Assembly (NCBI GenBank): GCA_963575745.1
Contig: CAUYUJ010000001.1
Location: 1 to 64,000, forward strand
Source of the DNA: Prorocentrum cordatum
Taxonomy: Eukaryota
Length of the DNA stretch: 64,000 nucleotides
Direction: 5' to 3'
Shown here: positions 1,942 through 63,482 of the stretch, piece by piece
Layout: the number at the start of each line of letters is the position of its first letter
Numbering within the stretch: position 1 is the first letter of the stretch
Made by a program: the position numbers and the translations under genes
Notes under the pieces: model-generated
What the model saw: the letters and a program-made list of their open reading frames with translations, nothing else
The model's database searches: none
What the model was told of the DNA's origin: nothing

Positions 1942-4900
1942 ATGGCTAACTCCATCGGCGTAACCACTATCAATGTCTCGTCAGGCGGCCCCCTGATCGG
2001 CTACCTGGCCAACTGTTCCAGCATGTGCGTCGCTGTGCAGGAGCATCATGCACCGCCTGGGGCCCTGGCAAGGGCCCAGCAGGACGCGCTCGCCGAGGCC
2101 TACCACGGCGTCTGGGAGGCGGCGCTTCCAGGACATGGCTCTGGCAGTCAGGGTGGCGTGGCGGTCCTGGTGCCGAGACGGGTGCTCATCACAGCGCCCC
2201 CTGCGCTGGAGGGGCCGACCTTGGAGCCAGGGCGCATGGTGGCGGCGCATGTCAACTGCGGCGGCAAGGGAGGATTCGTCATGATCTCTCTGTACATGCG
2301 GGTTGACGAGCTGCTGTCGCCAGAGAACCTCGATGCAGATGCCGTGGATCGTGGGCGGGGATTTCAACATGGAGCTCAAGCAGATGGGCCCGCTGTCGTG
2401 GCTGCACTCCGTCAATGGCGTGACGGTGGTGCCGTCGGTGCCAACTTGCATCCAGGCCCTCCCTGGGCGCACGATCGACTTCTTTTTCGTGGCGTGCCAG
2501 GTCATGCCGAGGATTGGCCATCCTGCAGTCGGCGAGGCAGACACGTGGCCGCACCTGCCTGTCACGGTCACGCTGTCCGCCCAGCCGCAGGTGATGTGGA
2601 CGCGACAGCTGGTGCAGTCCAAGGGCTTCACCAAGGCGCCGAAGATCGGCTGCGCCAGGCCGCCACCAGACTGGGACCCGTTCCTCGACCAGGCTAGGCA
2701 GGCGACCTCGCCAGAGCAGCTGGCGGACGTGTGGGACCAGCTGCTGCTCGGCATCGAGTTCGAGCTGCAGGGGCGGCGCGATGTTGTCGGGCCGCAGGCC
2801 ACGAAGTTTACGTCCAAGCCGACGGCGCCCATGTTCGAGTGGATTAGGTTCGACCCCGACGAGAGACAGTCTTGGAAGAGGAAGGCGCCCGACGTCGCAG
2901 CGTGGCTGGCAGCAGCGCGCTGGGCGCGGCAGTTTCGACGTGTACGTACTGCTCTCGTATCGTCCATCATGAAGCTGTCAGACCCTCCTACTTTCGTGTT
3001 GCCTGGTCTGGGATGCTCTGGAACGGTGGCACCTTCGGCACCCACGGCTACGGCTGCTACGTCGGCGGAGGTGCCCCGTGGCGCGGCGGCGGCTGCGGCT
3101 GGATCGGCGTCCTGGTCTCCTTCGGCGTCCTCCCCAGCGGCCCCCTCTCCACCCCTGGCACCCGCCACTGTTGCCAGAGGCCCCCCAATGGGGGATAACG
3201 GAAGGGGAACTGCCGCCGCCGTGGGCGTACAGCAGGCGCCCGATACTGGTGAACGCCCCCCGAGGAGGGAGTACTGCAGCAAGCTGTGCGACAAGACGGC
3301 GAGGCACATCTTCGAATTTCAGTGTTTCTTGAGAAGGATTGCAGCTCGCTCTGATGTCTGGCCGCACCTTGACAAGTTGGTTGTCGATTTCTTCGCATGT
3401 GGGCTCCTGGCGTTCGTACAGGAGGACTTCGACCAGCAGGTCGAGCGCATCATTGTCAAAGCAGATGGTATGCAGCGGGCGCACGAGAGGAAGGTAGCCG
3501 CCAGTTGGCATGCGTGGGCCGAGGCGTCGTTCGAGGGGGGCGCCAGCCGAGCACACAAGTGTTCCAAGCCGCTGGCGCTCCAGGAGGTAGTCGACTACGG
3601 CGCAGGGGTCCAACGTGCGTACCAGCTGGCCGATCGCAAGGTGCAGCACTGGTGCCAGTACTGGCAGAGGCACGATGACGGGCTGATCGTGCTGCCCAGC
3701 GACCACCAGGAGTGGGACCAGCTGCCGCCACTCAGTGGAAGTGACCTTCGTCGGGCTATTCGCGCCTTCAGCTGGACAACGGGTACGGGGCAAGTTAAGA
3801 TCGTCCCGCGGGCGCTGGGCCACCTATCCGATGCTGCCCTGGATGCGATGGCCGCCCTGTTCTGTCGGTGCGAGCAGTTGCCCATCTGGCCCCAGTCTCG
3901 GTTCATGACGAAGCTCGTTCGCCTACCCAAGCCTGGAGGAGGGGAGCGCCTGGTCGCTCTCCTCAACACGCTCATTCGAGTGTGGGGGAGGGCCCGTCGG
4001 CCTGTGTCTGCCCAGTGGGAGGTGGACAACGCCAGCGAGGAGTTCTGGGGGCACACGGGGGGCAGGTCGTCCACTGATGCTGCCTTCGACCTGGCCCTCG
4101 AGAAGGAGACGGCCCACCTCACGGGCGACCACGCCCTGATCGTGCTGCTGGACATGCTCAAGTGCTACGAGATGGTTCGGCACCAGGCGCTGCTCGATGA
4201 GTGCAGGGCCAACCAGTATCCCATGAGGCTGGCGTACATGCTCGTGCTGCTCTACCAGCAGGAGCGCACGATCTTCGCTTACAACTCTTTCTCGGAGGCG
4301 AAGCAGGCCTGCCAGGGCATCCTGGCTGGGTGCACTCATGCCACGACGCTGCTGATGGTACTGTTGACACGTGCCCTACGCATGATTGCTCGGATCGCGC
4401 CTGAGGTCCGACCACGTGGCTTGGTGGACGACGTGGCGCTGTCCTGGACGGGTGCCGATGCCCGAGGTGCCCGCATGCTGGCGTCCGCCACGCGAGTGTT
4501 CTGCGAGGCGGTCAAACCACTCGGTCTTCTGCTGCAGCTGGACAAGTCTGGGCACCTGGCAGTCACGCGGCAGTCGAAGTATCATTTCCGCCAGTTTGCC
4601 AAGATGCTCAAGATTGGAGGCAAGCGTCACATGCGCTACCTGGGCCACGACCTCGCCGCCAGTGCTGCCGTGCGCAATGTCCAGAAGGACCGCCTCAAGA
4701 AGATGGATGCTCGGCGCCCTCGGCTGAAGGCGTTGCAGAAGGGTGCTGGACGTTGGCGTTCGGCGCGCCTTTGGACTACGGGTGCGCTGCCGTCGGTCGG
4801 CCACGGAGCGGCGGTCAGCGGCATCAACGACGGCGAGCTGAAGCAGATGCGCAGTGTTGCTGGCAGTTTCTGTGGCTTCAGTGGCAGCGGCTCTCTTACT

Positions 4901-6959
4901 CTGTACCTGGCGGTTCAGAAGCAGCGCAATTTCGACCCGATCTACCATGCCACCTGCAGCCTGTTGCAGCAGTACTCGGTCTGGGTGTGGGCAGCGTGCG
5001 GCTCTCTCGCCAGGTTGCAGAGGGCCTGGATGGCGCTGAAGGACCAGTTCGAGGCTGCTCGCGGCGCGGTCACTTGGGCCAGCGCTCGAGGTCCGATCTC
5101 GGCCCTCTGGCTGACTCTGCGCAGGGTCGGGTGGGACATGGCCAGTGCCACGGTCCTCGTGGACGACACGGGCGTTGGCATCGACTTGCTCAGGGTCAGC
5201 CCCAGCGAAGTGCTGCACTACATGTACCTGAGCCTCGAGCGCTGGCAAAGCCATCGTATTTCGGACCACCTGCCTGGTGCCCCTGCTCGGCAGCCTGACG
5301 GTAGCCGACGGCATATCTGGATGCGAGCCCTCCGTCGTGGTCATCTGCAGAGGCTTTCAAGCGGGTTGCGAGGTGCGTTGGCCAAGCTCCAGTCAGATGG
5401 CATGTGGACGCCCGCTCGTAGGTGCGAGGCGGGTTACACGGACAATGCTGTATGTGGTTTCTGCGGTCACTCGCCTGCGGACCTCGAGCACGAGATGTTC
5501 TTCTGCTCGGTGCACGAGGCGCAGGAGGGCGAGGAGCAGGGCCCATGCCCTGACGACGTGCTGCAGGTCAGGAAAGACATCTGGGAGCAGGGCCAGACGG
5601 GTGCTGGCGCCGAGTGGGACCTCGCCACGGTCGACCTGCTCTACGCGCTGCCGATGCGCCCTGAGTTTCGGCCTCCTGAGCCCAGCCTGCTGCCTGTCAA
5701 AGAGTGGGGGGCCCGCGATGCCCCGTGGCCGTCCAAAGTTTTCGGAGACGGGTCTTGTTTCGATAGTGATTTCCCTTGAGGCCAGGCGGTGTGGTTGGGC
5801 GGTGGTGGCCCTCACGCCGAATCTTTTGCCGTTCAAGGCTATCTTTGGAGGCCTCGGAGGCCCTATTCAGACCGTGCCCAGGGCCGAAAGGTTTGCCGCT
5901 CTCCGAGGCCTCGAATTGGCGTCCAGGCCGTCTGTGTTTGTCACGGATCACTTAGCTCTGGCGCAAGAAGGGGAGTTGTGGTTTGGCAGGCATGCTCGAC
6001 CTACAGCACCTCATGCTAGCGTCTGGAGGCGACTGCACGCTCTGTACGAAAGTGATCTGGATCGTTTGCCCCGGTTTTCCTGGACTCGTTCTCACAGGTC
6101 TGTGGATGAGGGCATTGCGTCGTGCTGTTCCTCGGGCGAACCCTTGGAGAATTTGTTCGGTAATATGTGGGCCGATTGTTTCGCGAAGATGGCCGCGCTT
6201 GAGCTGTCGGGCTCATCCTCGGTCATCCGTGCACATAAGTTTGAGATGGAGCAGGCCAAGCAGCGGATGCGTTGTCTGGCGTTCGCTGCCCATAGAGTGG
6301 CCTCTTTGGCGTCGCCCGTCGTCTATCGGCCGCTACCGCCCGCCCCTAGAGCCCCACGTCGACGAAAGCCGACCACCCACGCGTTTGCCCTGTTTCCTGC
6401 GGGCGCTATTGGGTGCAAGGCTTGTTGGCGCCAGGCCTCGACCCCGTCTTCCTTGAAGTCCCTCGCCTCCCGCTTGTGTGATCCCCAGGTTGTCGGCCCT
6501 GGACACCTGATCCAGGTTTGTGATCGAGTGCTGATTTGCACGCGCTGTGGGGCCCACACAGTGCGACCGCAGAGGCTCTCAGTGGGCCTCACGCGAGCCT
6601 GCCTTGTCAAGGATGAGGGAGTTCGGTCGGGAGCGGGGGCGTGTGGGACGCGGGGGGAGAGAGTCCAGAAAATGTTGCAACAGGCCCAGCGTGGCCGCCA
6701 CCCCAAGACGGGAGAGGCGATCGGCCCGCTGCTCCTAGCCCCGATTGCCCCTGAGGCCGCGTTGCGCTCGCTGGCTTACGTCGGGACGGGGGTGGCGGAC
6801 GGGGGGGGCGGTGTCGGTCGTGGTGTCGAGGAGGAGGAGCGGCGGAGCACGGCGCCGCAGGCCTCTGCCGAGGGGCAGCGCAGGCCCGCGCCCACGGCTC
6901 CCCCCTCCCCCTCGGCCTCTGCGCCCCAGCAACAGCCCGAGTCTGGGGACTCGGACTAG
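1942..6959 (+). pseudogene. LINE ORF2 (APE endonuclease, reverse transcriptase, CCHC finger, RNase H, C-terminal Cys/His motifs) with two frame disruptions
   Basis: APE motifs: TINV, VAVQEHH, GGVAVL, PWIVGGDFN, RTIDFF, HLPV. RT motifs: LPKPGGGERLVALL, LLDMLKCYE, QGILAGC, GLVDDV, RYLGH. Finger: CGFC...LEHEMFFC. RNase H: VFGDGS, QTVPRAE, FVTDH, RSH, GNMWAD. Breaks near 2330 (apparent deletion) and at 5776-5777 (extra T: ttccct[t]gag restores FPEARRCGW). Confidence 0.9.
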
Positions 6960-7053: not shown

Positions 7054-7440
7054 CTCCTCCTCCTCCTCCTCCTCCTCCCCCGCCTCCTCCTTCTCCTCCT
7101 ACCCCTCCTCCTCCTCCTCCTCTTCCTCCTCCTCCTCCTCCTCCTCCTCCTCCCTCCTCCTCCTCCTCCTCCTCCTCCCCCGCCTCCTCCTTCTCCTCCT
7201 AATTACCCCTCCTCCTCCCCCCCCTCCTTCCTCCTCCCTCCTCCTCCCCTCTCCTCCTCTCCTCCTCCTCCTCCTCCTCCTCCCTCCCTCCTCCCTCCTC
7301 CCTCCTCCCTCCTTCCCTCCTCCTCCTCCTCCTCCTCCTCCTCCTCCCTTCCTCCTCCTCCTCCTCCTCCTCCTCCTCCTCTCCTCCCTCTTCCCTCCTC
7401 CTCCTTCTCCTCCTCCTCCTCCTCCTCCTCCTCCTCCTCC
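7054..7440. repeat. (CCT)n microsatellite tract at the LINE 3' junction
   Basis: Near-pure CCT repeats. Similar GAG/CCT tracts lie near 7925-8092, 16490-16890, 17020-17430, 21000-21500, 34515-34715, 34990-35300, 37486-37700, 42652-42775 and 62780-63460. Confidence 0.97.
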
Positions 7441-16400: not shown

Positions 16401-16522
16401 GGCACAGCCGATGTGGTTCGATTCCGACTCCGCGCCGATGCAGCCCGATCCAACGCACAGTTCGATTCGATCCAATTTCCCGACTGGAGGAGGAAAGGAG
16501 GGGGGAGGAGGAGGAGGGTGAG

Positions 16523-16556
<34 letters not shown>

Positions 16557-16929
16557 AGGAGGAGCAGGAGGTGGAGGAGGAGGAAGAAGAGGATCGCGCA
16601 GAGGATTTTGGAGGAGGAGGAGGAGGACAGAGAGGAGGAAGAGGAGGAGGAGGATGCGGATGAGGAGGAGGACAAGGAGGAGGAGGACAAGGAGGAGGAG
16701 GATAAGGAGGATGAGGACGAGGACGAGGAGGAGGACGAGGAGGAGGAGGAGGAGGAGGAGGAGGAGAAGAAGGAGGGGGAGGAGGAGGAGGAGAGGAGGA
16801 GGAGGAGGAGGAGGAGGAGGAGGAGGAGGAGAGGAGGAGGAGGAGGAGGAGGAGGAGGAGGAGGAGGAGGAGGAGGAGGAAGAGGAGGAACTCGATGCTG
16901 ACTGGTCCTCGTGGTCGCAGCCCCCGAAG

Positions 16930-16975
16930 GCTGGTTCGGACGTCGCCAACTTGCGCGCCACGGCCACGCGCGAAG
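16930..16975 (+). CDS. Acyl-CoA dehydrogenase, exon b (AGSDVANLRATATRE-G)
   Basis: AG acceptor and GT donor; ACAD signature region AGSDVxxLxxxA. Confidence 0.9.
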
Positions 16976-17579
16976 GTGGCGCGCGCCGCCGTCGCCGCCT
17001 CCTCCTCCTTGTCATGATCCTCCTATTCCTCCTCCCCCTCCTCCTCCTCCTCCTCTTCCTCCCCTCCTGCTCCTGCTCCTTCTCCTCCTCCTACTCCTCC
17101 TTCTGCTCCTCCGCATCCTCCTCGTCTTCCTCATCCTCCTCCTCCGCATCCTCCTCCTCCGCATCCTCCGCATTATCCGCCTCCTCCACCTCCACCTCCT
17201 CCTCCTCCTCCTCCTCCTCCTCCTCTTCCTCCTCCGCCTTGTCTTCCTCCTCCTCCTCCTCTCCTCCTGGTCCTCCTCCTCCTCCCTCCTCCTTCTCCTC
17301 CTCTTGCTCCTCCTCCTCCCCCTCCTCCTCCTCCTGCTCCTCCTCCTCCTCCTCCTCCTTCCCTCCCCCTATTCCTTCTCCTCATCCTCCTCATCCTCCT
17401 CCTCGTCCTCCTCGTCCTCCTCCTCCTACTCCCGATCCTTTTGTTAACACCCTCGCGGTGTTAACAAAAGGAGCCGTTTGGCAAAGGTTCGGCCTCTGGG
17501 GTGCCCCACTGTGCCGCAGGACCGTCAAATGATCCTGGCGAAGGGCCAAACATATCCAGTTGTGAATACCGCCGGTGTG

Positions 17580-23304: not shown

Positions 23305-24060
23305 TGAGTAAATTGTGAGGAAGTCTCAGGCGGGAGCCCCCTCCCTATGGGGCCCGCAGATCATGTTGGTAATCCGAGCGGGTCATCGGAACCCTGTAAC
23401 TGTCGTCACTTTTGGGCTCCCAGGCTTGAAAATGGAGGAAGTCTCAGGCGGGAGCCTCGTCTGTGAGTGAATTGGGAGGAAGGTCTCAGGCGGGAGCTCC
23501 CTCCCTATGGGGCCCGCAGATCATGTTGGTAATCCGAGCGGGTCATCGGAACCTTGTAACTGTCGTCACTTCTGGGCTCCTCAAGCCTGAATTTGGAGGA
23601 AGTCTCAGGCGGGAGCCTCGTCTGTGAGTGAATTCTGAGGAAGGCTCAGGCGGGAGCCCCCTCCCTATGGGGCCCGCAGATCATGTTGGTAATCCGAGCG
23701 GGTCATCGGAACCCTGTAACTGTCGTCACTTTTGGGCTCGTCAAGCCTGAATTTGGAGGAAGTCTCAGGCGGGAGCCTCGTCTCTGAGTGAATTGTGAGG
23801 AAGTCTCAGGCGGGAGCCCCCTCCCTATGGGGCCCGCAGATCATGTTGGTAATCCGAGCGGGTCATCGGAAACCTGTAACTGTCGTCACTTTTGGGCTCC
23901 TCAAGCCTGAATATGGAGGAAGTCTCAGGCGGGAGCCTCGTCTGTGAGTGAACTGCGAGGAAGTCTCAGGCGGGAGCCCCCTCCCTATGGGGCCCGCAGA
24001 TCATGTTGGTAATCCGAGCGGGTCATCCAAAACCTGTAACTGTCGTCAATTTTGGGTTCT
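23305..24060. repeat. Tandem repeat, ~160-bp unit, ~4.7 copies
   Basis: Units start at 23305, 23464, 23625, 23785 and 23945. Each contains two copies of GAGGAAGTCTCAGGCGGGAGCC. Confidence 0.95.
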
Positions 24061-25154: not shown

Positions 25155-27980
<2,826 letters not shown>

Positions 27981-39335: not shown

Positions 39336-39662
39336 GAATTTCCAGCGGGGCAGGGCCAGAATTGGGAATGGTGGGGGGGGAGAGGATGCGGAGGACAGGG
39401 TGGTGGTGGTCACTGCATAAGGGAAACAGAATCCCGAGCAGAGCAACACGCACCACGACCACGACGACGCCGACGACGACGACGGAGACGAGGCGCGCTT
39501 ACGATCCGCACCGAAGCACGGATTTGGGAAAGGGCCCACCCTGCAGGTTCGGTTAAACAGCGCATCGTTGAGCGGTGCTGCAGCCTCCCCTGAGCACAGG
39601 CCCCTCCAGAGCATCAGCCAGACAAGTCGGGTTTGCACCCTCATGCCTTGCTGGACTCTGGG

Positions 39663-39734
39663 CGCGTTTCGGCACCCTCTCCCCCAACCTCGTCAGGGCC
39701 ACCGACAAGGGAGAGGGCGGCGATGGCCGACGCG
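39663..39734 (-). ncRNA. Type III hammerhead ribozyme, copy 1
   Basis: Core CUGACGA, GAAA and GUC intact; one C->U change in stem I gives a G-U pair. Confidence 0.85.
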
Positions 39735-40105
39735 TCCCCGAGCTAAGAAGCTCAAAGCGCCGCGGCTCAGAGAGCCGGGAAGGCAGACAGACAGACGGAC
39801 GGACGGACAGCCAGGCGGCGCGCAATGCCTGGCAAGCCAAGTGGGTGGTCACTGCATAAGGGAAACAGAATCCCAAGCAGAGCAACACGCACCACGACCA
39901 CGACGACGCCGACGACGACGACGACGACGGAGACGAGGCGCGCTTACGATCCGCACCGAAGCACGGATTTGGGAGAGAGCCCACCCTGCAGGTCCGGTTA
40001 AACAGCACATCGTTGAGCGGTGCTGCAGCCTCCCTTGAGCACAGGCCCCCCCGGAAAATCAGCCAGGCAAGTCGGGTTTGCACCCTCATGCCTTGCTGGA
40101 CTCTG

Positions 40106-40177
40106 GGCGTTTCGGCACCCTCTTCCCCAACCTCGTCAGGGCCACCGACAAGGGAGAGGGCGGCGGTGGCCGACGCG
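40106..40177 (-). ncRNA. Type III hammerhead ribozyme, copy 2
   Basis: Core intact; a 2-nt loss shortens stem III and there is one loop-II change. Confidence 0.8.
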
Positions 40178-40547
40178 TCCCCGAGCAAAGAAGCTCAAAG
40201 CGTCGCGGCTCAGAGAGCCGGGAAGACAGACAGACGGACGGACGGACGGACAGCCAGGCGGCGCGCAACGCCTGGCAAGCCAAGTGGGTGGTCACTGCAT
40301 AAGGGAAACAGAATCCCGAGCAGAGCAACACGCACCACGACCACGACGACGCCGACGACGACGACGACGGAGACGAGGCGCGCTTACGATCCGCAGCGAA
40401 GCACGGATTTTGGAAAAGGCCCACCCTGCAGGTTCGGTTAAACAGCACATCGTTGAGCGGTGCTGCAGCCTCCCCTGAACACAGGCCCCCCCGGAGCATC
40501 AGCCAGACAAGTCGGGTTTGCACCCTCATGCCTTGCTGGCTTCTGGG

Positions 40548-40619
40548 CGCGTTTCGGCACCCTCCCCCCCAACCTCGTCAGGGCCACCGACAAGGGAGAG
40601 GGCGGCGGTGGCCGACGCG
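40548..40619 (-). ncRNA. Type III hammerhead ribozyme, copy 3
   Basis: Core and stems intact; one A->G change in loop II. Confidence 0.87.
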
Positions 40620-40990
40620 TCCCCGAGCTAAGAAGCTCAAAGCGCCGCGGCTCAGAGAGCCGGGAAGACAGACAGACAGACGGACGGACGGACAGCCAGG
40701 CGGCGCGCAATGCCTGGCAAGCCAAGTGGGTGGTCACTGCATAAGGGAAACAGAATCCCGAGCAGAGCAACACGCACCACGACCACGACGACGCCGACGA
40801 CGACGACGACGGAGACGAGGCGCGCTTACGATCCGCACCGAAGCACGGATTTGTGAAAAGGGCCCGCCCTGCAGGTTCGGTTAAACAGCGCATTGTTGAG
40901 CGGTGCTGCAGCCTCCCTTGAACACAGGCCCCCCCAGAGCATCAGCCAGACAAGTCAAGTTTGCACCCTCATGCCTTGCTGGACTCTGGG

Positions 40991-41062
40991 CGCGTTTCGG
41001 CACCCTCTCCCCCAACCTCGCCAGGGCCACCGACAAGGGAGAGGGCGGCGGTGGCCGACGCG
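40991..41062 (-). ncRNA. Type III hammerhead ribozyme, copy 4 (core mutant CUGGCGA)
   Basis: The plus strand reads CTCGCCAG instead of CTCGTCAG; probably inactive. Confidence 0.8.
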
Positions 41063-41424
41063 TCCCCGAGCTAAGAAGCTCAAAGCGCCGCGGCTCAGAG
41101 AGCCGGGAAAACAGACGGACGGACGGACAGCCAGGCGGCGCGCAATGCCTGGCAAGCCAAGTGGGTGGTCACTGCATAAGGGAAACAGAATCCCGAGCAG
41201 AGCAACACGCACCACGACCACGACGACGCCGACGACGACGACGACGGAGACGAGGCGCGCTTACGATCCGCACCGAAGCACGGATTTGGGAAAGGGCCCA
41301 CCCTGCAGGTTCGGTTAAACAGCACATCGTTGAGCGGTGCTGCAGCCTCCCCTGAACACAGGCCCCCCCAGAGCATCAGCCAGACAAGTCAAGTTTGCAC
41401 CCTCATGCCTTGCTGGACTCTGGG

Positions 41425-41496
41425 CGCGTTTCGGCACCCTCTCCCCCGACCTCGTCAGGGCCACCGACAAGGGAGAGGGCGGCGGTGGCCGACGCG
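41425..41496 (-). ncRNA. Type III hammerhead ribozyme, copy 5
   Basis: Core and stems intact. Confidence 0.87.
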
Positions 41497-41866
41497 TCCC
41501 CGAGCTAAGAAGCTCAAAGCGCCGCGGCTCAGAGAGCCGGGAAGACAGACAGACAGACGGACGGACGGACAGCCAGGCGGCGCGCAACGCCTTGCAAGCC
41601 AAGTGGGTGGTCACTGCATAAGGGAAACAGAATCCCGAGCAGAGCAACACGCACCACGACCACGACGACGCCGACGACGACGACGACGGAGACGAGGCGC
41701 GCTTACGATCCGCACCGAAGCACGGATTTGGGAAAGGGCCCACCCTGCAGGTTCGGTTAAACAGCACATCGTTGAGCGGTGCTGCAGCCTCCCCTGAGCA
41801 CAGGCCCCCCCAGAGCATCAGCCAGACAAGTCGGGTTTGCACCCTCATGCCTTGCTGGACTCTGGG

Positions 41867-41938
41867 CGCGTTTCGGCACCCTCTCCCCCAACCTCGTCAG
41901 GGCCACCGACAAGGGAGAGGGCGGCGGTGGCCGACGCG
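41867..41938 (-). ncRNA. Type III hammerhead ribozyme, copy 6 (consensus)
   Basis: Minus strand: CGCGUC^GGCCACCG-ccgcccucucccuugu-CGGUGGCC-CUGACGA-GGU-ugggggagagggu-GCC-GAAA-CGCG. Confidence 0.9.
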
Positions 41939-42311
41939 TCCCCGAGCTAAGAAGCTCAAAGCGCCGCGGCTCAGAGAGCCGGGAAGACAGACAGACAGAC
42001 GGACGGACGGACAGCCAGGCGGCGCGCAATGCCTGGCAAGCCAAGTGGGTGGTCACTGCATAAGGGAAACAGAATCCCGAGCAGAGCAACACGCACCACG
42101 ACCACGACGACGCCGACGACGACGACGACGACGGAGACGAGGCGCGCTTACGATCCGCAGCGAAGCACGAATTTGGGAAAGGGCCCACCCTGCAGGTTCG
42201 GTTAAGCAGCACATCGTTGAGCGGTGCTGCAGCCTCCCCTGAGCACAGGCCCCCCCAGAGCATCAGCCAGACAACTCCGGTTTGCACCCTCATGCCTTGC
42301 TGGACTCTGGG

Positions 42312-42383
42312 CGCGTTTCGGCACCCTCTCCCCCAACCTCGCCAGGGCCACCGACAAGGGAGAGGGCGGCGGTGGCCGACGCG
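42312..42383 (-). ncRNA. Type III hammerhead ribozyme, copy 7 (core mutant CUGGCGA)
   Basis: Same core substitution as copy 4. Confidence 0.8.
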
Positions 42384-43165
42384 TCCCCGAGCTAAGAAGC
42401 TCAAAGCGCCGCGGCTCAGAGAGCCGGGAAGACAGACAGACGGACGGACGGACGGACAGCCAGGCGGCGCGCAATGCCTGGCAATCCAAGTGGGTGGTCA
42501 TTTCATAAGGGAAACAGAATCCCGAGCTGAGCAACACGCACCACGACCACGACGACGCCGCCGACGACGACGACGGAGACGAGGCGCGCTTACGATCCGC
42601 ACCGAAGCACGGATTTGGGAAAGGGCCCACCCTGCAGGTTCGGTTAAACAGGGAGAAGGAAGAGGAGGAGGAGGAAGAACAGGAGGAGGAGGACAAGGAG
42701 GAGGGCATGGAGGAGGAAGAGCAGGAGGAGGACAGGGAGGAGGAAGAACAGGAGTAGGAGGAGGCTCGGAGGAGGACGGGCAAGCACTGACGCCATCAGA
42801 CCGCAGTCCCCAGGAGAACGGGAAGAGGGGGTGGAGAAGGAGTTAGCGAGAACGATGCGGTGGAGAGGGAGCTGGGGAGGGAAAGTGAGAGAGAGAGAGA
42901 GGGAGACCGGGAGGCAGAGATAATGATGGTGCGAGAGAGGGAGAGAAAGAGAGAGAGCGAGAGCGAAACACAAAAAAAAACATGTGACACGCAGCCAACG
43001 TTTTCCGCCGCAGTGCGGCAGAGGCAATCCTCGCGCGCGCTCCTGTGGGCCAGGCGATGGCAGGCACTAGTTGCCCAGCGGCAAGAGGGGGGGACAAAGG
43101 CGGAGAGCGCGGCCGCGGAGGGGGGCAGAGGAGGGAGGACACTCACAGCGCGAGGGTATTCTTAA

Positions 43166-43996: not shown

Positions 43997-44190
43997 AGAA
44001 GACAAAACCACATAAACATAATTGTTTGGCGTTCCGCGCGGACTTCTTGGATCTGCGCTAGGGCCCGCTGGAGGCGCCTCCGGCGCCGCCCCTGGCGCGC
44101 TCCGCGCGCCAGGGAGGGGGGTCCAGCGCGGATCCAAGGAAACCGCGCGCAGCGCCGACAATTTATGTTTATGTGGTTTTGTGTTTGTTC
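43997..44190. repeat. Palindromic MITE-like repeat family B (AAACCACATAAACATAA...TTATGTTTATGTGGTTT)
   Basis: Terminal inverted repeats and a GC-rich near-palindromic core; related copies at about 9440-9600 and 52560-52730. Confidence 0.75.
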
Positions 44191-62544: not shown

Positions 62545-63460
62545 GCGCGCTCGCAGGGCACGGTCGGACCGAGGTATAAGATCGAGGTCGCTTCTGGGAG
62601 GGTACTCTAATGTGTTTCGTGATTGTTGGATGTTTTTGTGCACCTTTGGGGGGGGGCTCGAATTTTCTTCGGCTTGGCCGGCGGAGGGTCTCGTGTTCTC
62701 GGACGGATGTTTTTCTGTCTGTGGTCCGGTTGTGGGAACGAGTGTCGCCGTGAAGGAGGAGCGGGTTTGGCAGGAGGACGAGGAGGAGGAGAAGGGAGGA
62801 GGGAGGAGCGTGTTTTTTTGGAGAGGGGGAGGAGGAAGAGGGAGGAGGAGGAGGGAGGAGGAGGGGAGGAGGAGAAGGAGGAGGAGGAGGAGGCGGAGGA
62901 GGAGGAGTACGAGGGGGTCCGGCAGAAAAGAGGCCGCGATGGTTTTTTGACCGTCTCTGGGCTCCCAGGGTCCGCCCCCAGTCCAGGGGCCACGAAATAG
63001 CCAGCCCGAGGCGAGAAGTCCGCCTCGGGGAAAGCCGCAAGGTCCAGGACACGTTCTCCCATCATGAGGTCCTCCTCCTCCCTCCACCTCCTCCTCCTCC
63101 TCCTCCTCCTCCTCCGCATCCTCCTCCTTTTGCTCCTCCTCTTCCTCCTCCTCCTCCTGCTCCTCCTCCTCCTCCTCCCTTCTCCCTCCTCCCTCCCCTC
63201 CTCATCCTCCTCCATCTCCTCCTCCTCCTCCTCCTTCTCCTCTTCCTCCCTCCTCCTCCCTCCTGCTCCTCCTCTCCTCCTCCTCCTCCTCCTCCTCCTC
63301 CTCCTCCTCCTCCTCCTCCTCCTCCTCCTCCTCCTCCTCCTCCTCCTCCCTCCTCCTCCTCCCTCCTCCTCCCTCCTCCTCCTCCCTCCTCCTCCTCCTC
63401 CTCCTCCCTCCTCCTCCTCCTCCTTCCTCCTCCTCCCTCCTCCCTCCTCCTCCCTCCTCC

Positions 63461-63482
63461 TCCGTAGCCATTTTGGCTCAAG
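63461..63482 (+). other. Dinoflagellate spliced leader (DinoSL), perfect 22-mer, second copy
   Basis: TCCGTAGCCATTTTGGCTCAAG, in phase with the preceding (TCC)n tract. Confidence 0.97.

What the first reader, a model, noticed from the sequence alone, without database searches (positions are those of the whole stretch)
41867..41938. Hammerhead loops I and II are complementary over 9+ bp (long kissing pseudoknot)
Seen: loop I contains CCCUCUCCC and loop II contains GGGAGAGGG, giving 9 Watson-Crick pairs that extend to about 13 with G-U pairs. Established: natural hammerheads need loop I/II tertiary contacts for fast cleavage, usually non-canonical contacts or short pseudoknots. Inference: this long pairing makes a chance match very unlikely, may offset the weak 3-bp stem II, and could define a new structural variant.
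Basis: partly seen in the sequence, partly recalled or inferred. Interest (0 to 1): 0.75.

Follow-up and report, generated by a model that had tools for sequence, protein, structure and literature searches.

The report
Hammerhead ribozyme in a tandem repeat
The flagged bases are a convincing self-cutting hammerhead RNA that recurs once per unit of a 442-base tandem repeat in a marine eukaryote. Its two unusually long loops really can pair over nine bases, a long version of a known trick, but whether that pairing helps or blocks cutting is untested.

Summary
Window 41867-41938 encodes a type III hammerhead with a full consensus core, a GUC cleavage site, an 8-bp stem I, a 3-bp stem II and a stem III of 5 bp or more. 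Loop I (16 nt) holds CCCUCUCCC and loop II (13 nt) holds GGGAGAGGG. That gives 9 Watson-Crick pairs, or 13 counting G-U, with a chance probability of about 0.1-0.4%.

The ribozyme recurs once per unit in a 442-bp, 7.4-unit tandem array (39405-42651). Five of the 7 copies have an intact core. Public marine DNA runs and runs labelled or guessed RNA hold the unit. This fits a retrozyme-like or satellite repeat.

Watson-Crick pseudoknots between loops I and II are already known, in about 40% of hammerheads, with 4-6 bp tested. So this is a long variant, not a new principle.

- **For the pseudoknot:** stem II alone is unstable (+0.1 kcal/mol), and the linker lengths allow about 9 bp, though not 13.
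- **Against it:** the predicted minimum-energy fold is a different hairpin that buries the catalytic core (-55 against -33 kcal/mol). Rfam models do not detect the motif. I found no covariation, and no relatives in the metagenome or viral collections.

Verdict: a real ribozyme. The pseudoknot is plausible but unproven and may be one state of an on/off switch. Moderate interest.

The parts
39405..42651 (-). Tandem array, 442-bp unit, 7.4 copies, 95% matches, with one hammerhead per unit. The array starts at unit position 169 and ends at unit position 327, not at a cleavage site.
   Evidence: TRF; repeats; blastn of the unit against the window; unit alignment
41857..41949 (-). The flagged hammerhead with its extended stem III (outer pairs GCUC/GAGU and GGG/CCC)
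41934..41938 (-). Stem III 5' strand CGCGU (U16.1 at 41934)
   Evidence: pair list
41933..41933 (-). C17. The predicted cleavage falls between 41933 and 41932 (GUC|G).
   Evidence: and sequence reading
41925..41932 (-). Stem I 5' strand GGCCACCG
   Evidence: stem I = 8 bp
41909..41924 (-). Loop I, 16 nt, CCGCCCUCUCCCUUGU. The pyrimidine tract CCCUCUCCC is at 41913-41921.
41901..41908 (-). Stem I 3' strand CGGUGGCC
41894..41900 (-). Catalytic core C3-A9, CUGACGA
41891..41893 (-). Stem II 5' strand GGU
41878..41890 (-). Loop II, 13 nt, UGGGGGAGAGGGU. The purine tract GGGAGAGGG is at 41879-41887.
41875..41877 (-). Stem II 3' strand GCC
41867..41874 (-). Core G12 A13 A14 (41874-41872), then stem III 3' strand ACGCG (A15.1 at 41871)
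41425..41496 (-). Hammerhead copy with an intact core. Loop II first U is C, which would turn a G-U into G-C in the extended loop pairing.
40548..40619 (-). Hammerhead copy with an intact core. Loop II has A->G, which changes an A-U of the loop pairing to G-U.
40106..40177 (-). Hammerhead copy with an intact core. Loop II has G->A, which breaks a central C-G of the loop pairing. A 2-nt deletion shortens stem III.
39663..39734 (-). Hammerhead copy with an intact core. Stem I has C->U, which changes a C-G pair to U-G (a G-U wobble).
42312..42383 (-). Hammerhead copy with core CUGGCGA (A6->G), presumed inactive
   Evidence: not matched
40991..41062 (-). Hammerhead copy with core CUGGCGA (A6->G), presumed inactive
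   Evidence: not matched

Best explanation
The minus strand encodes a genuine type III hammerhead ribozyme, present once per unit in a 442-bp tandem repeat of a GC-rich marine eukaryote.

Inferred by analogy with retrozymes and hammerhead satellites: a multimeric minus-sense transcript cuts itself after C17 (between 41933 and 41932, and at the same place in the other intact units). This releases 442-nt monomers with 5'-OH and 2',3'-cyclic phosphate ends, which a host RNA ligase could circularise.

Inferred from sequence, energetics and precedent, not shown: in the active fold the pyrimidine tract of loop I pairs with the purine tract of loop II over up to about 9 Watson-Crick pairs. This pseudoknot helix stacks on the 3-bp stem II, which is unstable on its own. 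It holds stem II beside stem I and replaces the non-canonical loop-loop contact of ordinary type III hammerheads. The 13-pair version cannot form.

The same segments, together with a 9-pair complementarity between the 3' part of loop I and the CUGACGAGG core, can also form a long non-catalytic hairpin. That hairpin is probably the resting state of the processed RNA.
For: - **Motif.** All conserved hammerhead positions and three helices are present. My own type III descriptor finds only the 5 intact copies in 64 kb on both strands. In 100 dinucleotide shuffles it gave a mean of 0.04 hits, with 4 shuffles giving one hit each. The pattern CTGANGAG..CGAAAC occurs 5 times against 0.07 expected.
- **Context.** There is one ribozyme per unit of a 442-bp array. 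This is the classical eukaryotic setting (PMC7229834, PMC5680766, PMC7761336 passages).
- **Public runs.** Twenty runs from 14 studies hold the unit, 6 of them on record as RNA. A 472-nt contig (442 + 30, the size expected for a cyclic unitig at k = 31; that value of k is recalled, not reported by the tool) occurs without differences in run X1, which the tool only guesses to be RNA, and in DNA run X5.
- **Conservation.** A diverged 174-nt contig from seawater RNA-seq carries 3 substitutions and 4 indel places, 7 differences in all (the tool's own count is 3 other letters and 6 gaps). All lie outside the 74-nt hammerhead part. P = 0.018 if they were spread evenly.
- **Loop pairing.** It is non-random.
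- **Weak stem II.** The stem II hairpin alone scores +0.1 kcal/mol, and the two long loops cost +6.5 and +5.9. Without a loop-loop helix the ribozyme fold is poor (-32.8 kcal/mol).
- **Energetics with the pseudoknot.** Adding the -18.1 kcal/mol (9 bp) to -23.0 kcal/mol (12 pairs of the 13-nt tracts) duplex energy gives roughly -51 to -56. That is level with the rival hairpin at -55.1. This is my simple addition and ignores loop entropy.
- **Linkers.** There are 3 nt on the 5' side and 1 nt on the 3' side of the tract in loop II, and 3 nt and 4 nt in loop I. A 3-nt linker can just span the 21-25 Å across 9-10 levels of an A-form deep groove.
- **Precedent.** About 40% of hammerheads have such pseudoknots. 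Stem II can be as short as 1-2 bp, and compensatory mutants restore activity (PMC3088659). A 6-bp pseudoknot helix takes the place of helix II in a crystal structure (PMC11300833).
Against: - No Rfam hammerhead family matches, either at gathering score in the whole window or at E <= 10 on the local stretches.
- The minimum-energy fold of the 96-nt region is not a hammerhead. It is a hairpin of -55.1 kcal/mol (z = -3.8) that pairs the catalytic core. A second nested hairpin containing the 9-bp helix scores -50.4. The nested hammerhead fold scores only -31 to -34. A 60-nt 5' prefix already prefers the core-burying hairpin.
- There is no compensatory change. Of 3 loop II variants in the array, 2 keep pairing through wobble or G-C and 1 breaks it, which is what chance would give.
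- Within the array the hammerhead is not significantly better conserved than the rest of the unit: 10 differences in 558 cells against 52 in 2101, p = 0.43.
- Two of the 7 copies carry A6->G in the core.
- The runs were contigs only. No RNA ends, RNA strand or circles could be shown, and contigs in RNA-seq run X16 and in X1 (guessed RNA) run across the cleavage site.
- The 9-bp helix leaves a taut linker. Its geometry relative to stem I (8 bp against 3 bp) differs from the 2-bp stem-length difference that usually goes with pseudoknots in type III hammerheads (PMC3088659, legend of Figure S4).
Confidence: 0.5

Rival explanations
1. The loop complementarity exists mainly to build the inactive hairpin, not a pseudoknot. 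The hammerhead cuts during a short co-transcriptional window, or only weakly. The tracts then lock the monomer or circle into a rod-like arm that hides the core. This protects the RNA from re-cleavage, as in viroid-like RNAs.
For: The minimum-energy fold of the 96-nt region and of the circular 442-nt unit both show this hairpin. It is 21-24 kcal/mol better than the nested hammerhead fold. The extra 9-pair match between CCUUGUCGG and the CUGACGAGG core is itself unlikely, at 0.9% with loop I shuffled, and the pseudoknot model does not explain it.
Against: The minimum-energy hairpin uses the tracts in a shifted, imperfect register (5 + 1 + 3 pairs with internal loops). The perfect 9-bp register is the pseudoknot one. 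Without some loop-loop helix, stem II has no stability and the ribozyme would hardly fold at all. The two roles do not exclude each other.
Confidence: 0.25
2. A decaying satellite. The hammerhead is a relic, or a weakly active one. The polypurine/polypyrimidine complementarity is a by-product of the GGA/CCT-rich low-complexity sequence of this genome and has no role.
For: Two of 7 cores are mutated, and there is no extra conservation of the hammerhead within the array. The flanks are CCT/GGA microsatellites. GGGAGAGGG occurs 4 times elsewhere in the window. DNA run X5 shows a single contig at modest depth (12.5), which would fit a low copy number, although the tool warns that contig depth is no copy number.
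Against: The loop pairing is rare even against this window's own composition, at 0.09%. The hammerhead is unchanged in a diverged contig from another sample. The unit is found in runs on record as RNA. A perfect core with 8-, 3- and 5-bp helices is far from chance.
Confidence: 0.15
3. The 72-nt imperfect palindrome is a small-RNA precursor (a Dicer-type hairpin) or a DNA-level cruciform or triplex element, and its resemblance to a hammerhead is incidental.
For: There is a long, stable hairpin. The only weak Rfam matches are generic microRNA-precursor models at 17-18 bits, far below their gathering scores of 58-80. Both tracts are mirror repeats (sequence reading).
Against: Those Rfam scores are at chance level (E = 1.7-5). 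All conserved hammerhead core positions are present in the right order between three helices, which a generic hairpin does not need.
Confidence: 0.05

Closest known systems
Hammerhead ribozymes with a Watson-Crick pseudoknot between loops I and II (Perreault et al. 2011, PMC3088659; type III examples from Drosophila pseudoobscura and toad/termite HDV-like circles, PMC7936874)
   Same: The core and three-helix junction are the same. Stem II is short. Complementary loop sequences are proposed to hold stems I and II side by side. The topology is type III.
   Different: The reported or tested pseudoknots are 4-6 bp (GCCR/YGGC in the HDV-like ones). Here there are 9 contiguous Watson-Crick pairs, in loops of 16 and 13 nt. 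The stem lengths are 8 and 3 bp. Rfam models do not detect this motif.
Pseudoknot hammerhead of the crystal structure (Zhan et al. 2024, PMC11300833)
   Same: A pseudoknot helix does the structural job of helix II and lies beside helix I.
   Different: There the 6-bp pseudoknot forms with a separate stem-loop (helix IV), giving a pistol-like connectivity. Here it would form between the terminal loops of helices I and II.
Non-LTR retrozymes and hammerhead satellite repeats of animals (Cervera and de la Pena 2020, PMC7229834)
   Same: Short tandem repeats of 150-450 bp with one hammerhead per unit. [quoted passage not shown]
   Different: Those carry type I hammerheads and have low GC (below 50%). 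This unit has a type III hammerhead in a window of about 53-68% GC (one (TAC)n bin at 39%), in a marine protist-like genome. Circles are not shown here.
Plant LTR retrozymes (Cervera et al. 2016, PMC4918200; reviews PMC5680766 and PMC7761336)
   Same: Type III hammerhead and high GC. The review notes tandem hammerhead copies in algae and oomycetes as putative relatives.
   Different: Plant elements have two LTR-borne ribozymes 600-1000 bp apart, a tRNA-Met PBS and a PPT. I found no PBS-like site (up to 3 mismatches to a recalled 12-mer), and no purine tract other than loop II. A canonical plant hammerhead has a 6-bp helix I with a 6-8-nt loop, and a 4-bp helix II with a 4-nt loop (PMC7936874).
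Hammerhead viroids and viroid-like satellite RNAs
   Same: A unit-length RNA of a few hundred nt, a type III ribozyme, and a stable alternative fold that hides the ribozyme.
   Different: Those replicate as RNA and carry ribozymes in both polarities. Here the unit is DNA-encoded, and only the minus strand has a ribozyme.

Membership tests
Hammerhead ribozyme (any type) | Conserved core: C3 U4 G5 A6 N7 G8 A9, G12 A13 A14, and the A15.1-U16.1 pair, with position 17 not G | tested here: met
   CUGACGA ... GAA-A ... U-C in 5 of 7 copies. The other 2 copies have A6->G.
Hammerhead ribozyme (any type) | Three helices around the core, with a G10.1-C11.1 pair | tested here: met
   Stem I 8 bp, stem II 3 bp (G-C, G-C, U-G), stem III 5 bp plus 3 and 4 outer pairs
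Hammerhead ribozyme (any type) | Recognition by the curated Rfam covariance models | tested here: not met
   No hammerhead family at gathering score in the window or at E <= 10 locally. The long loops are the likely reason, but this is my inference.
Hammerhead ribozyme (any type) | Site-specific self-cleavage giving 5'-OH and 2',3'-cyclic phosphate ends | not testable with these tools
   Only contigs were available, so RNA ends are not visible.
Type III topology | Helices I and II closed by loops, helix III open | tested here: met
   The order on the strand is III-5', I hairpin, core, II hairpin, GAAA, III-3'.
Pseudoknot-stabilised hammerheads (Perreault 2011) | 4 or more Watson-Crick pairs possible between loop I and loop II (or its tail) | tested here: met
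   9 Watson-Crick pairs, chance 0.1-0.2%
Pseudoknot-stabilised hammerheads (Perreault 2011) | The pairing is supported by covariation or by compensatory mutants | tested here: inconclusive
   7 copies and 4 runs give no double change. There are 3 single changes, of which 2 are compatible and 1 is disruptive. No relatives were found.
Non-LTR retrozyme / hammerhead satellite | Tandem units of a few hundred bp, each with one hammerhead | tested here: met
   442 bp x 7.4 units, 7 ribozyme copies
Non-LTR retrozyme / hammerhead satellite | Type I hammerhead and low GC | tested here: not met
   Type III hammerhead. The window's 2-kb bins are mostly 53-68% GC, with one (TAC)n bin at 39%.
Non-LTR retrozyme / hammerhead satellite | Unit-length linear and circular RNA in cells | tested here: inconclusive
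   The unit is present in runs on record as RNA. A 472-nt cyclic-type contig occurs in X1 (guessed RNA), but the same contig occurs in DNA run X5, so a tandem array explains it equally well.
Plant LTR retrozyme | LTRs, a PBS for tRNA-Met, a PPT and a 4-bp TSD | tested here: not met
   A simple head-to-tail array with no PBS-like site and no separate purine tract. There is only a doubtful 6-bp CCCTGT repeat at the two ends.

The most novel reading that the evidence does not exclude
The purine and pyrimidine tracts make a built-in two-state ribozyme. In one state a 9-bp loop-loop pseudoknot switches on cleavage and, by rigidly docking stems I and II, possibly protein-free re-ligation into a 442-nt circle. 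In the other state a shifted register of the same tracts, plus a core-masking helix, switches the ribozyme off in the finished RNA. This would be a natural hammerhead with a far longer tertiary helix than any characterised one. It would also define a lineage of type III tandem-repeat circle-forming elements in marine protists that current covariance models miss.
Probability: 0.2. Interest if true: 0.65.

Novelty: new variant of a known kind. Interest (0 to 1): 0.4.

Why it matters
If the 9-bp helix forms and is needed, it extends the known range of hammerhead tertiary stabilisers. It would also give a simple, designable Watson-Crick handle for tuning cleavage against ligation. In addition, it would show that retrozyme-like, possibly circle-forming repeats with type III hammerheads exist in marine planktonic eukaryotes and escape Rfam-based annotation. 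If instead the pairing only builds the inactive hairpin, the element is one more example of the ribozyme masking known from viroid-like RNAs.

Tried and rejected
- **Rfam.** The whole window at gathering score gave 0 matches. Searches at E <= 10 on 41700-42100 and 41380-41960 gave only chance-level microRNA, lncRNA and frameshift models and no ribozyme family.
- **Own genome.** Not held, so no genome-wide copy survey was possible.
- **Metagenome scan.** The pattern GGCCCTGANGAGGN{8,22}CCGAAAC returned 109 loci. With the 2 viral loci that made 111 loci held; I screened all of them and 12 passed my type III descriptor. None belongs to this family. L050 and L094 look like ordinary short-loop type III hammerheads, and the rest are unrelated or doubtful.
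- **Viral contigs.** Three patterns gave 2 unrelated loci, then 0, then 0.
- **Earlier findings of this scan.** Nothing for this genome or this sequence. The word search gave only phage hammerheads from other genomes.
- **Read laying.** All 4 runs were contigs. No molecule ends were listed, no joint could tell a circle from a tandem array, and there were no variants inside the hammerhead. Positions 41491-41582 were skipped as repeat, and I draw nothing from that hole.
- **Circular fold of the unit.** -203 kcal/mol, 67% paired, z = -1.9 against mononucleotide shuffles, so it is not clearly more structured than chance.
- **Pfam.** Across 69 long ORFs (7, 62) there was only one sub-threshold RVT_1 match, so the array has no coding context that I could name.
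- **PBS/PPT search.** Negative.
- **Literature.** Searches found no paper describing this motif or a hammerhead in haptophytes or similar marine algae. The held, truncated supplements of PMC3088659 do not contain the tract sequences. De la Pena and Garcia-Robles 2010 (PMC2941103) is not held. It may list algal tandem hammerheads that I could not see.

Full report
**Observation**

The flagged 72 bases read as a hammerhead only on the minus strand. From 41938 down to 41867 the RNA is:

CGCGU-C|GGCCACCG-[CCGCCCUCUCCCUUGU]-CGGUGGCC-CUGACGA-GGU-[UGGGGGAGAGGGU]-GCC-GAA-ACGCG

- Every position that defines the hammerhead core is present: C3 U4 G5 A6 N7 G8 A9, G12 A13 A14, the A15.1-U16.1 pair, the G10.1-C11.1 pair, and a GUC cleavage triplet.
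- Helix I has 8 pairs, helix II has 3 (G-C, G-C, U-G), and helix III has 5, plus two further blocks of 3 and 4 pairs.
- Helices I and II are closed by loops and helix III is open, so the topology is type III.
- The longest contiguous antiparallel match between the loops is 9 Watson-Crick pairs, or 13 with G-U.
- In 100,000 trials each, 9 or more Watson-Crick pairs arose in 0.22% of shuffles that kept each loop's own composition, and in 0.09% of random 18-nt and 13-nt pieces of this window.

**Is the hammerhead itself more than chance?**

- A simple type III descriptor of my own (core, helix I of 4 or more pairs, II of 2 or more, III of 3 or more) finds only these copies in both strands of the 64 kb. 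One hundred dinucleotide-preserving shuffles gave a mean of 0.04 hits, with 4 shuffles giving one hit each.
- The pattern CTGANGAG...CGAAAC occurs 5 times against 0.07 expected.
- Against this, Rfam does not see it. No family reaches gathering score anywhere in the window, and no hammerhead model appears even at E <= 10 on the local stretches. I attribute this to the two long loops, but that is inference.

**Context**

The ribozyme is not solitary. It recurs once per unit in a head-to-tail array of 442-bp units at 39405-42651, with 7.4 units and 95% matches.

- Five of the 7 ribozyme copies have an intact core. Two carry CUGGCGA, an A6->G change at an invariant position.
- The array begins at unit position 169 and ends at position 327, so it does not start or stop at a cleavage site.
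- It sits in CCT/GGA-rich low-complexity DNA. The two ends share a doubtful 6-bp CCCTGT.
- There is no LTR, no tRNA-Met-type primer site (up to 3 mismatches to a recalled 12-mer), and no purine tract other than loop II.
- Only the minus strand carries a ribozyme, and no other ribozyme family is detected in the unit.
- The window is eukaryotic in character. It has long microsatellites and a LINE-like reverse-transcriptase ORF at 2285-5776.

**Public runs**

- The unit is held by 20 public runs from 14 studies. Most are marine metagenomes or coded organisms A-C, and 6 are on record as RNA.
- Laid on 41491-41960, run X1 (which the tool only guesses to be RNA) and DNA run X5 both contain a 472-nt contig without differences. 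That is 442 + 30, the size expected when a circle or a tandem repeat collapses in a k = 31 graph (the value k = 31 is recalled, not stated by the tool). It therefore cannot tell a circle from the array.
- A 174-nt contig from seawater RNA-seq (X16, depth 80) is a diverged copy. By my count it has 3 substitutions and 4 indel places, 7 differences in all (the tool lists 3 other letters and 6 gaps). All fall in the 96 nt outside the hammerhead and none in the 74 nt inside. P = 0.018 if they were spread evenly.
- Within the window's own array the hammerhead is not significantly better conserved than the rest of the unit: 10 differences in 558 cells against 52 in 2101, p = 0.43.
- No molecule ends, strand or circular junctions could be read, because all four runs are kept as contigs.

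**What the loop complementarity does: the case for a pseudoknot**

- Stem II with its 13-nt loop has no stability of its own (+0.1 kcal/mol). The two long loops cost +6.5 and +5.9 kcal/mol, and the nested hammerhead fold reaches only -31 to -34 kcal/mol.
- The ordinary type III design is a 6-bp helix I with a 6-8-nt loop touching a 4-nt loop on a 4-bp helix II (PMC7936874 passages). These loops are far longer and make little sense unless they pair.
- The tracts are flanked by 3 nt (5') and 1 nt (3') in loop II, and by 3 and 4 nt in loop I.
- Using recalled A-form fibre parameters, the 3-nt linker must span about 21-25 Å across the deep groove for a 9-10-level helix. That is possible but taut. 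Twelve or 13 pairs would need 31-34 Å with no linker left and are excluded.
- The free duplex energies are -18.1 kcal/mol (9 bp) and -23.0 kcal/mol (12 pairs formed by the 13-nt tracts). Adding them to the nested fold gives about -51 to -56 kcal/mol. This is my addition and ignores loop entropy.
- Perreault et al. estimated that about 40% of hammerheads use a Watson-Crick pseudoknot between stems I and II. They found stem II as short as 1-2 bp. Trimming a 6-bp pseudoknot to 4 bp cost about 20-fold in rate, and compensatory mutation restored it (PMC3088659 passages).
- A crystal structure shows a 6-bp pseudoknot helix doing the job of helix II beside helix I (PMC11300833 passages).

**The case against: a rival hairpin**

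- The minimum-energy fold of the 96-nt region is a long hairpin of -55.1 kcal/mol (z = -3.8). In it CCUUGUCGG, made of the 3' part of loop I and the start of the helix I 3' strand, pairs with the CUGACGAGG core. The two tracts pair in a shifted, imperfect register.
- That core-masking match is itself uncommon, at 0.9% with loop I shuffled.
- A nested hairpin that contains the perfect 9-bp helix scores -50.4 kcal/mol.
- A 60-nt 5' prefix already prefers the core-masking hairpin to helix I.
- The circular 442-nt unit also folds with this hairpin.

The same complementarity could therefore switch the ribozyme off. The two roles are compatible. The pseudoknot would make the active fold competitive during or just after transcription, and the hairpin would be the resting state of the processed RNA, as in viroid-like RNAs.

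**Covariation**

- The array gives three single changes in loop II. U->C improves a G-U to G-C in the extended pairing. A->G keeps an A-U as G-U. G->A breaks a central C-G, in a copy that also has a shortened helix III.
- There is one change in helix I, where a C-G pair becomes a U-G (G-U wobble) pair.
- None of these is a double change, and the split is what transitions give by chance.
- The four runs show no variant inside the hammerhead.
- The window's genome is not held.
- A metagenome scan returned 109 loci. Screened together with the 2 viral loci (111 in all), 12 passed my descriptor and none is of this family. Three viral scans gave nothing related.

**Comparison with what is known**

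- Hammerheads in tandem repeats are a long-known eukaryotic theme.
- Animal non-LTR retrozymes and satellites have type I ribozymes in 150-450-bp low-GC units and give linear and circular monomers that an RtcB-type ligase closes (PMC7229834 passages).
- Plant retrozymes have type III ribozymes in LTRs, with a PBS and a PPT (PMC5680766 and PMC7761336 passages).
- The present element mixes these features: a simple tandem array like the animal elements, but type III and GC-rich like the plant ones, in a marine eukaryote.
- My literature searches found no description of this motif, nor of hammerheads in haptophyte-like marine algae. The tract sequences are absent from the held, truncated supplements of PMC3088659.
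- A 2026 preprint linking animal retrozymes to Penelope-like elements was seen only as a search listing.
- Craig et al. report that most Chlamys/Naiad Penelope-like elements lack canonical hammerheads and insert into microsatellites (PMC8557442 passages). The only retroelement ORF I saw in the window is LINE-like, 35 kb away, and no link to the array is shown.

**Verdict**

- The ribozyme is real by sequence criteria (about 0.9).
- The tandem-repeat, retrozyme-like reading is likely (about 0.75) but rests on analogy.
- The loop-loop helix as a functional pseudoknot of up to 9 bp is the best single explanation (about 0.5).
- Its main rival is an inactive-hairpin role (0.25). The two may coexist as a switch.
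- It is a long variant of a known kind of tertiary contact, not a new principle.
- Interest is moderate.

Noticed in passing
window 23305-24056: A second tandem array with a 160-bp unit, 4.7 copies and 94% matches. It has no ribozyme or other Rfam family at E <= 1, apart from chance-level snoRNA models at its edge, and my type III descriptor gives no hit.
   Followed up: partly
window 25181-27932: A 2.75-kb degenerate (TAC)n microsatellite (917 copies, 74% matches). It explains the local drop to 39% GC and the strong negative GC skew.
   Followed up: no
window 2285-5776 (+): An 1164-aa open frame with a sub-threshold RVT_1 match (27.5 bits against a cutoff of 29.6). Its nearest Atlas clusters are eukaryotic LINE-like reverse transcriptases with Exo_endo_phos endonuclease domains. 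No link to the hammerhead array is shown.
   Followed up: partly
window 39393-39404 and 42652-42660 (array ends): Both ends of the array abut CCT-rich low-complexity DNA and share CCCTGT next to the junction. This may be a 6-bp target-site duplication, or it may be chance, because CCCTGTCCTCC recurs in the flank.
   Followed up: partly
window 41906-41914 with 41892-41900 (minus strand): CCUUGUCGG, made of the 3' part of loop I and the start of the helix I 3' strand, is complementary over 9 pairs to the CUGACGAGG core. The chance of this is 0.9% with loop I shuffled. It looks like a built-in mask of the catalytic core.
   Followed up: partly
window 43999-44185: An inverted repeat with 71-nt arms, 79% complementary, separated by 45 nt, just outside the array.
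   Followed up: no
L050 (contig Ga0115008_10057988) and L094: Two metagenome loci caught by the scan look like ordinary short-loop type III hammerheads (helices of 9/4/8 and 7/3/4 pairs). They are unrelated to the window's element.
   Followed up: no
window 7054-7440, 16486-17432, 63070-63463: Long CTC/GGA/CCT/TCC trinucleotide microsatellites (127-146 copies each). They give many long spurious open frames, and across only 1 of the 69 long ORFs scanned had any Pfam match (RVT_1, below its cutoff).
   Followed up: no
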